Source of the DNA: Escherichia coli
GTDB lineage: Bacteria > Pseudomonadota > Gammaproteobacteria > Enterobacterales > Enterobacteriaceae
DNA length: 64,000 nt
NCBI RefSeq assembly: GCF_024502345.1
Contig: NZ_JALDNN010000001.1
Direction: 5' to 3' (one strand)
Below the pieces are notes generated by a model, which worked only from the letters and a program-made list of their open reading frames with translations, searched no databases and was not told where the DNA came from. Numbering within the stretch: position 1 is the first letter of the stretch; every line of letters starts with the position of its first letter. Below are positions 44,138-56,530 of this stretch, in pieces. Position numbers and translations under genes: made by a program.

Positions 44138-44872
44138 GTGGGTAATAATTTAATGCAGACGGACCTTTCCGTCTGGGGTATGTATCAGCACGCCGATATT
44201 GTCGTTAAGTGCGTGATGATTGGGCTTATTTTGGCCTCCGTAGTCACCTGGGCAATCTTCTTCAGTAAGAGCGTAGAGTTCTTCAATCAGAAGCGTCGCC
44301 TTAAGCGCGAGCAGCAACTGCTGGCTGAAGCGCGTTCCTTAAACCAGGCCAACGATATCGCCGCTGATTTTGGTAGCAAAAGCTTAAGCCTGCATTTGCT
44401 CAATGAAGCGCAGAATGAGCTGGAACTGTCAGAAGGCAGCGACGATAACGAAGGTATTAAAGAACGTACCAGCTTCCGTCTGGAGCGTCGGGTCGCCGCA
44501 GTGGGTCGTCAAATGGGCCGCGGTAACGGCTATCTGGCAACCATCGGCGCGATTTCTCCGTTCGTTGGTCTGTTTGGTACGGTCTGGGGCATCATGAACA
44601 GCTTTATTGGTATCGCGCAAACGCAGACCACTAACCTGGCAGTCGTTGCGCCGGGTATCGCAGAAGCTCTGTTAGCAACGGCAATCGGCCTCGTGGCAGC
44701 GATTCCTGCGGTCGTTATCTATAACGTATTTGCACGCCAGATTGGCGGCTTTAAAGCGATGCTGGGTGATGTTGCAGCGCAGGTATTGTTGCTGCAAAGC
44801 CGTGACCTGGATCTGGAAGCCAGCGCCGCTGCGCATCCGGTTCGTGTCGCACAAAAATTACGCGCAGGATAA
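44138..44872 (+). CDS. exbB: Ton system biopolymer transport protein ExbB, 244 aa
   Basis: Recognised. Confidence 0.95.
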   Translation: MGNNLMQTDLSVWGMYQHADIVVKCVMIGLILASVVTWAIFFSKSVEFFNQKRRLKREQQLLAEARSLNQANDIAADFGSKSLSLHLLNEAQNELELSEGSDDNEGIKERTSFRLERRVAAVGRQMGRGNGYLATIGAISPFVGLFGTVWGIMNSFIGIAQTQTTNLAVVAPGIAEALLATAIGLVAAIPAVVIYNVFARQIGGFKAMLGDVAAQVLLLQSRDLDLEASAAAHPVRVAQKLRAG

Positions 44873-44878
44873 TATCCG

Positions 44879-45304
44879 ATGGCAATGCATCTTAACGAAA
44901 ACCTCGACGATAACGGCGAAATGCATGATATCAACGTGACGCCGTTTATCGACGTGATGTTGGTTCTGCTGATTATCTTTATGGTGGCGGCACCGTTAGC
45001 GACGGTAGATGTGAAGGTGAACTTGCCTGCTTCTACCAGCACGCCGCAGCCGCGCCCGGAAAAACCGGTTTATCTGTCGGTGAAGGCAGACAACTCGATG
45101 TTTATCGGTAACGATCCGGTCACCGATGAAACAATGATTACGGCGTTGAATGCGTTAACCGAAGGCAAGAAAGACACCACCATCTTCTTCCGAGCGGATA
45201 AAACCGTCGATTACGAGACGTTGATGAAGGTAATGGATACGCTGCATCAGGCGGGTTACCTGAAGATAGGTCTGGTCGGCGAAGAAACCGCCAAAGCGAA
45301 GTAA
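44879..45304 (+). CDS. exbD: Ton system biopolymer transport protein ExbD, 141 aa
   Basis: Recognised. Confidence 0.95.
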   Translation: MAMHLNENLDDNGEMHDINVTPFIDVMLVLLIIFMVAAPLATVDVKVNLPASTSTPQPRPEKPVYLSVKADNSMFIGNDPVTDETMITALNALTEGKKDTTIFFRADKTVDYETLMKVMDTLHQAGYLKIGLVGEETAKAK

Positions 45305-45313
45305 AGTAGAATT

Positions 45314-45525
45314 GCCTGATGCGCTACGCTCATCAGGCCTACAAAATCTATTGCAACATGTTGAATCTTCGTGCGTTTGTAGGCCGGATAAGGCGTTCAC
45401 GACGCATCCGGCATTAGGTGCTCAATGCCTGATGCGCTACGCTTATCAGGCCTACAAAATCTATTGCAACATGTTGAATCTTCATGCGTTTGTAGGCGGA
45501 TAAGGCGTTTTCGCCACATCAGGTA
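45314..45525. repeat. BIME: two tandem ~113-bp units each containing a pair of inverted REP elements
   Basis: GCCTGATGCGCTACGCTTATCAGGCCTACA and TGTAGGCCGGATAAGGCG...CATCCGGCA motifs, duplicated at 45314 and 45427. Confidence 0.85.
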
Positions 45526-45543
45526 AGAGTGAATTCACAATGA

Positions 45544-45577
45544 TGCCCGGTTGCTTTTCACAACCGGGCATTTTTTT
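45544..45577 (+). terminator. exbBD rho-independent terminator
   Basis: GCCCGGTTG-CTTTTCA-CAACCGGGC followed by ATTTTTTT. Confidence 0.7.
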
Positions 45578-46460
45578 AACCTAAATGCTCGCCGCCGCAC
45601 ACGCCGTGCACTTCTGCGGTGACGTAGCTCGACTCCTGACTTGCCAGATAAACATATACAGGGGCCAGTTCCGCCGGTTGCCCCGCACGCTTCATCGGCG
45701 TTTTCTGACCAAACTGCGGGATCTTATCCTGCGTTTGTCCGCCGGAAATTTGCAGTGCCGTCCAGATAGGGCCTGGCGCGACAATATTCACCCGAATACC
45801 TTTCTCCGCGACCTGTTTTGCCAGGCCACGGCTGTAGTTCAGAATCGCCGCCTTCGTAGCCGCATAGTCCAGTAAATGCGGACTTGGCTGGTATGCCTGG
45901 ATTGACGAAGTGGTGATGATACTTGCACCTTTCGGTAGCAGGGGGATCGCTTCCTGGGTTAGCCAGAACAGCGCGAAAACGTTAATGGCAAAGGTCTTTT
46001 GAAACTGTTCGCTGGTGAGGTCTGCAATATCCGGAATGGCAACCTGTTTCCCGGCGACCAGCGCCATAATATCCAGCCCGCCTAACGCCTTGTGCGCTTC
46101 GTGAACCAGCGAACGGGCGAATTTCTCATCGCTTAAATCGCCTGGCAGCAGAACGGCTTTGCGTCCGCATTCTTCAATGATCTTTTTCACATCCTGAGCG
46201 TCTTCTTCTTCCACGGGAAGATAACTGATCGCCACGTCAGCCCCTTCACGCGCGTAAGCGATGGCGGCAGCGCGACCTATTCCGGAATCGCCCCCTGTCA
46301 CCAGTGCTTTACGATCTTTCAGGCGACCGCTACCAACATAGGTTTTCTCGCCGCAATCCGGTACCGGTGTCATCTTCGCCTGGATGCCTGGCGTCGGTTG
46401 TTTCTGTTTGGGATATTCACCAGTGTAATACTGCGTGGTCGGGTCTTTTAAATGAGACAT
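45576..46460 (-). CDS. yghA: SDR-family oxidoreductase, 294 aa
   Basis: Rossmann motif TGGDSGIG; recognised. Confidence 0.9.
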
Positions 46461-56160: not shown

Positions 56161-56409
56161 ATGTGTATTGGCGTTCCAGGCCAGGTGCTGGCTGTCGGTG
56201 AAGATATTCACCAGCTTGCGCAGGTTGAAGTATGTGGTATCAAGCGCGACGTGAATATCGCCCTGATTTGTGAAGGTAACCCTGCCGATCTGCTGGGCCA
56301 GTGGGTGCTGGTACACGTCGGATTTGCCATGAGCATCATCGACGAAGATGAAGCCAAAGCCACATTAGACGCACTGCGCCAAATGGATTACGACATTACC
56401 AGCGCGTGA
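56161..56409 (+). CDS. hybG: Hydrogenase maturation factor HybG (HypC paralog), 82 aa
   Basis: MCIGVP N-terminus typical of HypC family. Confidence 0.92.
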
Positions 56410-56414
56410 TGATT

Positions 56415-56530
56415 AGCTTTCGTAGGCCTGATAAGACGCGGCAGCGTCGCATCAGGCATTGTGCTCGATTGCCGGATGCGGCGTGAACGCCTTATCCGGC
56501 CTGGATGGCTTGCTGCGACGAACGCTAACC
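56415..56530. repeat. REP elements between hybG and yghU
   Basis: GTAGGCCTGATAAGACGCG...CGCATCAGGC and TGCCGGATGCGGCGTGAACGCCTTATCCGGCCT. Confidence 0.8.

What the first reader, a model, noticed from the sequence alone, without database searches (positions are those of the whole stretch)
45314..45525. Duplicated BIME unit downstream of exbD
Two ~113-bp tandem units, each holding a pair of inverted REP palindromes, sit between exbD and the exbBD terminator. The two units differ at only a few bases, implying recent duplication; such REP clusters are binding sites for IHF and gyrase and for REP-associated transposases, and can stabilise the upstream mRNA.
Basis: partly seen in the sequence, partly recalled or inferred. 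Interest (0 to 1): 0.2.

Follow-up and report, generated by a model that had tools for sequence, protein, structure and literature searches.

The report
Known REP/BIME repeat cluster after exbD
This is an ordinary, already catalogued E. coli repeat cluster (REP222 of strain K-12): four small palindromes arranged as two tandem units in the gap between the exbD and yghA genes, present in about two thirds of E. coli genomes and absent without visible harm from about one third.

Summary
Window 45313-45525 carries four REP palindromes arranged Y-L-Z1-s-Y-L-Z'. They lie between the exbD stop codon (45304) and a hairpin+T7 terminator (45542-45577), which abuts the convergent gene yghA.

Three REPs match published E. 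coli REP sequences with 0-2 mismatches; the fourth (Z') is degenerate. Each unit has the architecture of single-copy BIME-1 elements found after gyrB, cycA, avtA, gldA and rhlE. Because it is tandem, it counts as an 'atypical BIME'. The spacer is base-for-base identical to K-12's, where the element is called REP222.

'Differ at only a few bases' is half true. Y+L differ at 2 of 72 positions, but the right-hand REPs differ at 7 of 31.

'Recent duplication' is not supported. The inter-unit junction is in 3671 of 5426 complete genomes, and the same two unit-distinguishing SNPs occur in K-12-like, O157:H7 and two other strains. About 1631 genomes have a clean empty site. Between 45 and 79 carry one chimeric unit, derived by recombination between the repeats. 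E. albertii has one degenerate unit at the same site.

The likely activity is at RNA level: a 3'-exonuclease barrier in both the exbBD and yghA 3' UTRs. IHF binding at L is probable; gyrase binding is less apt.

Already known; low interest.

The parts
44879..45304 (+). exbD coding sequence (stop TAA at 45302-45304); upstream gene of the cluster
   Evidence: ORF list; annotated exbD in all matching E. coli records
45306..45538 (.). The 233-bp segment that is missing from 'empty' alleles (UTI89, CFT073, ST131 and others). It comprises the whole BIME plus its short flanks, with no target-site duplication.
   Evidence: Comparison of window with L002 and L099; empty junction found in 1631 of 5426 genomes
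45313..45342 (+). Y1: short Y-type REP in iREP orientation (ends CTAC). Its stem starts 9 nt after the exbD stop. It contains the IS621 target ATCAGGCCTAC at 45332-45342.
   Evidence: 1 mismatch to the published Y REP; hairpin -15.3 kcal/mol; IS621 target match
45343..45378 (.). L1: 36-nt long linker of BIME-1 type. It has the 10-bp palindrome CAACATGTTG and an IHF-core-like ATTCAACATGTTG (45354-45366, minus strand).
   Evidence: Alignment with L linkers after gyrB, cycA, avtA, gldA and rhlE; IHF core match 12/13; palindrome (I8)
45379..45413 (+). Z1: Z-type REP in REP orientation (starts GTAG)
   Evidence: 2 mismatches to the published Z REP; all conserved positions of the K-12 consensus in PMC2817692; hairpin -17.0 kcal/mol
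45414..45425 (.). s-like tail-to-tail linker (TTAGGTGCTCAA) joining unit 1 to unit 2
   Evidence: Aligns with the linker of the Rfam naRNA4 model. Similar linkers occur at window 56458-56469 and in L011.
45382..45452 (+). Z1-s-Y2 pair that matches Rfam family naRNA4 (RF02564), which is a model of a REP pair
   Evidence: 61.0 bits against a gathering score of 59.5, E = 1e-10
45426..45455 (+). Y2: short Y-type REP in iREP orientation. It contains the IS621 target at 45445-45455, which is occupied by IS621 in strain ET791.
   Evidence: 0 mismatches to the published Y REP; IS621 insertion in L004
45456..45491 (.). L2: second copy of the L linker (one difference from L1, G>A at 45484); IHF-core-like site at 45467-45479
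45492..45525 (+). Z': degenerate Z-type REP. It has a 1-nt deletion in the GTAGGCC head and an outer arm that is Y-like (CATCAGG). Its hairpin is weak.
   Evidence: 81% identity to Z1 (D2); not found at up to 3 mismatches to the Z consensus; -8.9 kcal/mol; corresponds in position to the single Z of E. albertii
45542..45577 (+). Intrinsic terminator of exbBD: a 12-bp GC-rich stem plus T7. The last two T overlap the yghA stop codon.
   Evidence: Terminator scan, + strand only; -20.5 kcal/mol; conserved in the empty allele, E. albertii and L011. In the empty allele it scores on both strands.
45576..46460 (-). yghA coding sequence, convergent with exbD. Its transcript enters the cluster from the right.
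   Evidence: ORF list; annotation; K-12 yghA mRNA reported to carry REP222 (PMC10100675)

Best explanation
The feature is REP222 of E. coli, a known bacterial interspersed mosaic element. It is built from two tandem BIME-1-like units, Y-L-Z1 and Y-L-Z', joined tail-to-tail by a short s-type linker. By the published definitions this makes it an 'atypical BIME'. It occupies the 271-bp spacer between the convergent genes exbD and yghA.

It is a dispensable product of the REP/RAYT repeat system, not a dedicated regulatory device. An ancestral single unit was already at this site before E. coli and E. albertii split. The array grew to four REPs before phylogroups A, B1 and E radiated. It has since been lost cleanly in B2-type lineages, and reduced to one unit sporadically by recombination between its 72-bp direct repeats.

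How it acts is inferred from the family plus K-12 experiments. It is transcribed as the 3' UTR of exbBD, upstream of the terminator. It is also transcribed as the 3' UTR of yghA, because in this allele the terminator hairpin has no U-tract on the yghA strand. The REP hairpins slow 3'-to-5' exonucleases, so decay needs the RNase E degradosome. This gives stabilised transcripts and REP-containing decay intermediates. The two L linkers probably each bind IHF. The first hairpin, 9 nt after the exbD stop codon, may dampen ExbD translation.
For: Identity:
- Matches to published REP sequences.
- Same architecture as single-copy BIME-1 paralogues.
- REP parts dispersed at a median of 16-36 places per genome, and L-type linkers at a median of 11 places.
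- The spacer is identical to K-12's.
- K-12 element named REP222a-e, linked to exbB, exbD and yghA (PMC10100675).
- Definitions of BIME-1, BIME-2 and atypical BIME (PMC3333891).

Dispensability and history:
- Junction in 3671, empty site in 1631, right end in 3750 of 5426 genomes.
- One-unit alleles number at least 45 and at most 79. They come as two chimeric types, carrying the unit-1 marker on the left and unit-2 markers on the right.
- The same two diagnostic SNPs occur in four lineages, each with private single-unit SNPs.
- E. albertii has one unit with homologous flanks. A divergent Escherichia lineage has a four-REP array. Other genera have a terminator only.

RNA role:
- Strong folding on both strands.
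- The terminator scores on the + strand only here, but on both strands in the empty allele.
- In K-12, the yghA full-length mRNA and a decay intermediate of about 300 nt are stabilised by ATP depletion, by RNase E inactivation and by degradosome truncation. exbB and exbD rise in parallel (PMC10100675).
- REPs no more than 15 nt from a stop codon lower translation (Liang 2015, as summarised in PMC12306157).
Against: - No direct measurement here of IHF binding, of exbBD 3' ends or of ExbD translation.
- The IHF core consensus alone is uninformative: 58 hits in the window against 54 expected.
- In the empty allele the terminator hairpin itself starts 4 nt after the stop. Any stop-proximal hairpin effect is therefore not specific to the BIME.
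- The polarity 'ancestral presence, later loss in B2' rests on two outgroup genomes and on parsimony. Independent gain or lateral replacement is not excluded.
- EcoCyc counts five REPs; I can identify only four.
- 30% of genomes lack the element with exbD and yghA intact, so any function is non-essential.
Confidence: 0.85

Rival explanations
1. A recent, strain-level tandem duplication of one complete BIME-1 unit. The few differences would reflect little elapsed time.
For: Y+L copies are 97% identical with exact 113-bp spacing. BIME copy number at a locus is known to vary between strains (PMC3333891).
Against: The inter-unit junction is single-copy and present in 3671 of 5426 genomes. The same two differences separate the units in K-12-like, O157:H7, E2865 and ET201 alleles. 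The right-hand REPs differ at 7 of 31 positions against 2 of 72 for Y+L (p = 0.003), so the two units were not simply copied whole at one time. The one-unit alleles are chimeras derived from the two-unit form.
Confidence: 0.07
2. A functional small-RNA gene of the naRNA4 family. The Z1-s-Y2 transcript would bind HU and help bridge cruciforms to condense the nucleoid.
For: The Rfam naRNA4 model scores 61.0 bits, above its gathering score of 59.5. The naRNA4 study reports that most REPs are transcribed and that two hairpins (Z2 and Y) are what the RNA needs (PMC4550694).
Against: The Rfam model is in effect a REP-pair model, so any Z-s-Y pair scores. No promoter-like site lies in the spacer. The element is absent from 30% of genomes. 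naRNA4 is defined at a different locus, REP325, with Z2 and other linkers.
Confidence: 0.06
3. A selected regulatory module. It would set the ExbB:ExbD ratio through stop-proximal ribosome stalling, and couple the Fur-regulated exbBD operon to yghA through overlapping antisense 3' UTRs.
For: The REP stem starts 9 nt after the exbD stop, within the 15-nt rule. The insertion removes the U-tract for the yghA strand, giving about 270 nt of potential overlap. exbB, exbD and yghA rise together under NaF.
Against: The empty allele already has a hairpin 4 nt after the stop. SNP density in the array is about the same as in the flanking genes in four alleles, which is weak evidence from small numbers. 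Z' is decaying. The array has been lost or halved repeatedly. Co-induction under NaF is shared with many REP-bearing mRNAs.
Confidence: 0.12
4. A gyrase-binding BIME acting as a topological insulator between two convergent transcription units.
For: Position between convergent genes. Y-type REPs are the preferred gyrase cleavage sites in BIME-2 (PMC6379681). The Z1-s-Y2 junction resembles a BIME-2 junction.
Against: Gyrase enrichment was shown for BIME-2, that is Y-S-Z2 arrays. Here the REP pairs inside each unit are separated by the 36-nt L linker typical of IHF-binding BIME-1, and there is only one s-type junction.
Confidence: 0.1

Closest known systems
BIME-1 (also called RIP or RIB): Y - L - Z1 elements of E. 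coli, for example those after gyrB, cycA, avtA, gldA and rhlE
   Same: Each unit has the short Y REP, a linker of about 36 nt with the conserved core TGCAAyrTrTTGAAT (the IHF-site region), and a Z1-type REP. It lies at the 3' end of a transcription unit (definition).
   Different: BIME-1 is described as single-copy per locus, whereas here two units are in tandem. The L core is a variant (CAACATGTTG instead of CAATATATTG). The second Z is degenerate.
[quoted passage not shown]
   Same: It combines Y, Z1, L and an s-type junction in a tandem array whose copy number varies between strains (definition).
   Different: None found. This is the class it fits. K-12 annotation calls it REP222a-e.
BIME-2 (Y-S-Z2 tandem arrays; gyrase sites; for example REP325 / naRNA4, Rfam RF02564)
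   Same: Tandem organisation. The tail-to-tail Z-s-Y junction scores above the naRNA4 gathering threshold.
   Different: The head-to-head linkers are L (36 nt), not S. The Z is Z1-like (TTCACG). There are only two units. Gyrase and HU roles were shown for other loci.
REPINs (inverted REP doublets mobilised by RAYT transposases, described in Pseudomonas)
   Same: Inverted REP pairs can fold into one long hairpin. Predicted folds pair Y with Z across L and across s. E. coli has a RAYT, TnpA_REP, that cleaves BIMEs in vitro.
   Different: Mobility of this unit was not shown. The junction 50-mer is single-copy in every genome, so this particular array has not been copied elsewhere.

Membership tests
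REP (E. coli GTAG-type repetitive extragenic palindrome) | Imperfect palindrome of 20-40 nt with a GTAG head that matches the Y or Z consensus | tested here: met
   Y2 has 0 mismatches, Y1 has 1 and Z1 has 2 to the published sequences. The fourth (Z') is degenerate and is not found at up to 3 mismatches.
REP (E. coli GTAG-type repetitive extragenic palindrome) | High-copy, dispersed and extragenic | tested here: met
   A median of 16 to 36 matching places per genome, with the counting cap reached. The element lies in a 271-bp intergenic spacer.
BIME-1 / RIP / RIB | Y and Z1 in inverse orientation, separated by the conserved long linker L | tested here: met
   Alignment with five single-copy paralogues. 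The L probe finds a median of 11 places per genome.
BIME-1 / RIP / RIB | L binds IHF | not testable with these tools
   Both L copies keep the same 12/13 core match (ATTCAAnnnnTTG) as the paralogues. The consensus alone is not above chance. No locus-specific binding data were found.
BIME-1 / RIP / RIB | Single unit per locus | tested here: not met
   Two units at 113-bp spacing. It is therefore filed as an atypical BIME by the definitions quoted.
Atypical BIME | Mixture of BIME-1 and BIME-2 motifs (Y, Z1/Z2, L, S, s, l, r) in more than one tandem copy | tested here: met
   Y-L-Z1-s-Y-L-Z'
BIME-2 | Y and Z2 separated by the short linker S, in multiple tandem copies; gyrase target | tested here: not met
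   The linkers inside the units are 36-nt L. The Z carries TTCACG, which is Z1-like. Gyrase cleavage could not be tested here.
naRNA4 (Rfam RF02564) | Covariance-model score at or above the gathering threshold | tested here: met
   61.0 bits against 59.5 at 45382-45452 on the + strand
naRNA4 (Rfam RF02564) | A discrete HU-binding RNA with a nucleoid-condensing function | not testable with these tools
   Defined experimentally for REP325 only. No promoter-like site in the spacer.
Rho-independent terminator | GC-rich hairpin followed by a T-run | tested here: met
   45542-45572 plus T7, on the + strand only. It scores on both strands in the BIME-less allele.

The most novel reading that the evidence does not exclude
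The BIME changes how two convergent genes end. In BIME-less genomes one hairpin flanked by an A-tract and a T-tract terminates both exbBD and yghA. In BIME-bearing genomes the insertion removes the U-tract for yghA. yghA transcripts then run about 230 nt further, through four REP hairpins antisense to the exbBD 3' UTR. The natural 0/1/2-unit polymorphism (30% / about 1% / 68% of genomes) would then give measurable allele-specific differences. These could appear in yghA and exbBD mRNA stability, in antisense overlap, and possibly in ExbD output and hence TonB energisation.
Probability: 0.2. Interest if true: 0.3.

Novelty: already known. Interest (0 to 1): 0.1.

Why it matters
It matters little as a discovery. 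REP/BIME clusters have been known since the 1980s-90s. This one is annotated in K-12 as REP222 and has been used experimentally as an example of a REP-stabilised mRNA 3' end.

The useful outcome is a corrected reading:
- It is an atypical BIME made of BIME-1-type (IHF-type) units, not a gyrase-type array.
- The duplication is old and nearly fixed in phylogroups A, B1 and E.
- The locus is a small natural allelic series of 0, 1 or 2 units, plus IS621 and IS200C insertions. This series could serve as a ready-made test bed for REP effects on termination, mRNA decay and translation of a stop-proximal gene.

Tried and rejected
- Tandem Repeats Finder found nothing, even at minimum score 30. The repeat finder and a pairwise alignment were used instead.
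- A scan with the IHF core consensus WATCAANNNNTTR gave 58 hits against 54 expected. It is not evidence on its own.
- The K-12 RefSeq feature table shows no repeat_region entry for the spacer. The name REP222 comes from PMC10100675.
- Three papers are not held: Liang 2015, Boccard & Prentki 1993 and Gilson 1991. Liang's rule is cited second-hand through PMC12306157. No supplement is held for PMC3333891.
- Literature searches for exbD with Term-seq and for IHF with yghA/exbD gave no locus-specific data.
- The variant four-REP array of locus L011 was searched in 5426 E. coli genomes. No genome covers at least 80% of it.
- A query designed to count one-unit alleles by coverage failed, because two-unit genomes were also joined to at least 80%. 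Its row list still shows at least 45 single-piece 298-bp matches. The upper bound of 79 comes from 3750 minus 3671.
E. fergusonii, E. marmotae and E. ruysiae were not seen.
- The 63-aa ORF at 45312-45503 and the 81-aa ORF at 45155-45400 were rejected as genes. They are made of REP sequence and are absent from 30% of genomes.
- The GTAG at 45306-45309, at the edge of the segment missing from empty alleles, was rejected as significant. E. albertii and L011 have GCAT and GCAG there.

Full report
**1. What is in the sequence**

The window carries the E. coli genes exbB (44138-44872), exbD (44879-45304) and, convergent on the other strand, yghA (45576-46460) (annotations). The 271-bp spacer between them (45305-45575) reads as follows:
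- 9 nt of flank
- Y1 (45313-45342)
- L1 (45343-45378)
- Z1 (45379-45413)
- a 12-nt linker (45414-45425)
- Y2 (45426-45455)
- L2 (45456-45491)
- Z' (45492-45525)
- 16 nt of flank
- a 12-bp GC-rich hairpin (45542-45572) with a run of seven T

The last two T are part of the yghA stop codon. The repeat finder gives a 72-nt direct repeat at 97% with 113-bp spacing. It is followed by a 27-nt repeat at 81%, shifted by one base. Tandem Repeats Finder misses the array.

**2. Is it more than chance, and is it REP?**

*Match to published REP sequences.* PMC11208160 quotes literal REP sequences. Against these, Y2 is identical to the short Y REP and Y1 has one mismatch. Z1 has two mismatches to the Z REP. 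No such matches occur in 100 shuffles. Z1 also carries every conserved position of the K-12 Z consensus printed in PMC2817692. Z' is a decayed copy. It has a 1-nt deletion in the GTAGGCC head and a Y-like outer arm. Its hairpin has -8.9 kcal/mol, against -13 to -17 for the other three.

*Dispersal.* Parts of the region match at a median of 16-36 other places per E. coli genome.

*Folding.* The spacer RNA folds far better than shuffles on both strands, with z = -6.9 and -8.7.

**3. Which kind of BIME**

A 58-nt probe of the linker finds a median of 11 places per genome. Five of these were fetched, downstream of gyrB, cycA, avtA, gldA and rhlE. They are single units with the same layout: (A)AAATTGCC, short Y, a linker of about 36 nt with the core TGCAAyrTrTTGAAT, then GTAGGCCGGATAAGGCGTTCACGCCGCATCCGGCA. 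This is the BIME-1 architecture, whose L linker is the IHF-binding one (PMC3333891; PMC2817692).

BIME-1 is described as single-copy per locus. Arrays that mix BIME-1 and BIME-2 motifs in several copies are called atypical BIMEs, and that is where this element belongs.

The linker between the units is a conserved tail-to-tail BIME linker, not unique DNA. The stretch Z1-linker-Y2 scores 61.0 bits on Rfam's naRNA4 model, above its gathering score of 59.5. That model is a Z-linker-Y REP pair from REP325. Similar linkers occur in the window's other REP pair at 56422-56504.

It is not the natural expectation for L-type units.

**4. It is already known**

The spacer is base-for-base identical to that of K-12 MG1655, positions 3,150,547-3,150,817. 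A 2023 study lists REP222 (REP222a-e, 'five REPs') for exbB, exbD and yghA (PMC10100675). It used yghA as a model REP-bearing mRNA.
- The full-length transcript and a decay intermediate of about 300 nt, detected with a probe over the REPs, are stabilised by ATP depletion (NaF), by RNase E inactivation and by deleting the degradosome scaffold.
- exbB and exbD mRNAs rise under the same treatment.

I can identify only four REPs by sequence. What the fifth annotated one is remains unclear.

**5. Population and history**

Diagnostic 50-mers were searched in 5426 complete E. coli genomes.

| Diagnostic | Genomes |
|---|---|
| Inter-unit junction (needs two units; single-copy) | 3671 (68%) |
| Right end, L-Z' | 3750 |
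| Clean empty junction TAAAAATGATGCCCGG | 1631 (30%) |

*Empty alleles.* They include UTI89, CFT073, O25b:H4 and Seattle 1946, and occur on at least two exbD-3' haplotypes. The missing segment is exactly 45306-45538 (233 bp), with no target duplication.

*One-unit alleles.* These have a 158-bp spacer and occur in at least 45 and at most 79 genomes. They are chimeras: the unit-1 marker (C at repeat position 19) is followed by the unit-2 right end (Z'). Two types differ in crossover point:
- A at position 59, as in ST361 and RM9513.
- G at position 59, as in TUM2820, MSI001 and LR-46.

So they derive from the two-unit allele by recombination or slippage between the 72-bp repeats, at least twice. 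They are not ancestral forms.

*Age of the duplication.* The two differences that distinguish the units (positions 19 and 59) are the same in the K-12-like window, O157:H7, E2865 and ET201. Each lineage adds private SNPs in one unit only. The duplication therefore predates the radiation of these lineages. 'Recent' is wrong at strain level.

*Not a single whole-unit copy.* Divergence between units is also uneven: 2 of 72 in Y+L against 7 of 31 in the right-hand REP (p = 0.003).

*Outgroups.*
- E. albertii carries one degenerate Y-L-Z unit at the same site with homologous flanks.
- A divergent Escherichia lineage (L011, about 95-96% identical in flanking genes) carries a four-REP array. Its halves are unlike each other: short Y and long Y, with short linkers. 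MAFFT reads it as a REP pair nested in an ancestral L.
- The L011 allele type is absent from the 5426 genomes.
- Enterobacter, Citrobacter, Pseudescherichia and other genera have only a terminator hairpin there.

My inference is that a single BIME-1 is older than E. coli, that it later expanded, and that the empty allele is a secondary clean loss. The empty alleles share a derived AAA last codon where all filled alleles and both outgroups have AAG. This rests on few outgroups and is not proven.

**6. How it most likely works**

*Shown by sequence.*
- On the exbBD strand the REPs precede an intact intrinsic terminator.
- On the yghA strand the same hairpin is followed by CAUCAUUGUG, and the scan does not call it a terminator.
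- In the BIME-less allele the hairpin sits 4 nt after the exbD stop, between an A-tract and a T-tract, and it scores as a terminator on both strands.
- Several other genera also have an A-tract, hairpin and T-tract there.

*Inferred.* In BIME-bearing genomes yghA transcription reads into the array. This agrees with the REP-containing yghA RNAs seen in K-12. For both genes the REP hairpins act as 3'-exonuclease barriers whose removal needs the degradosome.

*Also inferred.*
- Each L probably binds IHF, since the core is conserved relative to the paralogues. The consensus by itself is not above chance.
- The first REP stem starts 9 nt after the exbD stop. That is within the 15-nt range reported to depress translation (Liang 2015 via PMC12306157). 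The empty allele also has a hairpin that close.

*Dispensability.* 30% of genomes lack the element, with intact exbD and yghA.

**7. Rivals considered**

Four alternatives were weighed, with evidence given in the structured fields:
- a recent strain-level duplication, which the population data contradict;
- an independent naRNA4-like sRNA gene, where the Rfam hit reflects REP-pair similarity, no promoter is present and the element is absent from a third of genomes;
- a selected regulatory module for ExbD dosage or exbBD-yghA coupling, which is possible but unsupported;
- a gyrase-type insulator, which fits the wrong BIME class.

**8. Verdict**

This is a real feature that was correctly recognised as a REP/BIME cluster, but it is already known and ordinary. 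The role of yghA should be added. Interest is 0.1.

Noticed in passing
L004 224-1502 (E. coli ET791); window 45332-45342, 45445-45455 and 56422-56432 (minus strand): A 1279-bp IS621, the bridge-RNA IS110-family element, sits in the unit-2 Y REP at ...ATCAGGCCT|IS621|CT-ACAAAA. This is the natural IS621 target ATCAGGCCTAC described in PMC11208160. The window holds three copies of that 11-mer, two of them in this finding.
   Followed up: partly
L003 777-1488 (E. coli LP-26-E1-261); equivalent to window about 45575: A 712-bp IS200C copy is inserted inside the T-run of the exbBD terminator, between the hairpin and the yghA stop codon.
   Followed up: partly
L002 505-545 (UTI89) compared with window 45542-45577: In the BIME-less allele the hairpin lies 4 nt after the exbD stop, between an A-tract and a T-tract, and scores as a terminator on both strands. 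With the BIME present it scores only for exbBD.
   Followed up: yes
L012 1927-2060 (E. albertii NBRC 107761) and L011 1927-2182 (divergent Escherichia labelled E. coli SCPM-O-B-8794): E. albertii has one degenerate Y-L-Z unit at the same site. L011 has a different four-REP array (short Y, 21-nt linker, Z2, s, long Y, 25-nt linker, degenerate Z) that is not found in any of 5426 complete E. coli genomes.
   Followed up: partly
window 56422-56504: A second REP pair: a long Y in REP orientation, an s-like linker (ATTGTGCTCGAT) and a Z1 iREP with a damaged CTAC tail. It lies between an 82-aa ORF (56161-56409, + strand) and a 304-aa ORF (56532-57446, minus strand).
   Followed up: no
L001, L002 and L003, positions 1-73 (RefSeq annotation of exbB, WP_000527844.1): RefSeq names the exbB product 'tol-pal system-associated acyl-CoA thioesterase', although the gene symbol is exbB. 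This looks like a product-name error in the annotation pipeline.
   Followed up: no
window 45354-45363 and 45467-45476: The core of each L linker is a perfect 10-bp palindrome, CAACATGTTG. The paralogous BIME-1 linkers have CAATATATTG at the same place, overlapping the IHF-core-like motif.
   Followed up: partly
L092 (NCTC9040), equivalent to window 45484: A two-unit allele in which L2 carries G like L1, leaving one difference between the 72-nt repeats. This is either a point mutation or a short gene conversion between units.
   Followed up: no
E. coli genome search: One genome has two separate matches to the inter-unit junction 50-mer. It could be a three-unit allele, the reciprocal product of the recombination that makes one-unit alleles, or a segmental duplication.
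   Followed up: no
L004 147-498 (ET791): RefSeq annotates a frameshifted 'hypothetical protein' pseudogene across the BIME and the left end of IS621. It is almost certainly spurious.
   Followed up: no
window 45402: The window and K-12 have A in the Z1 stem (CACGACGC). O157:H7, E2865 and ET791 have the consensus C (CACGCCGC). This accounts for the 1446 genomes at 98% identity to the junction probe.
   Followed up: partly
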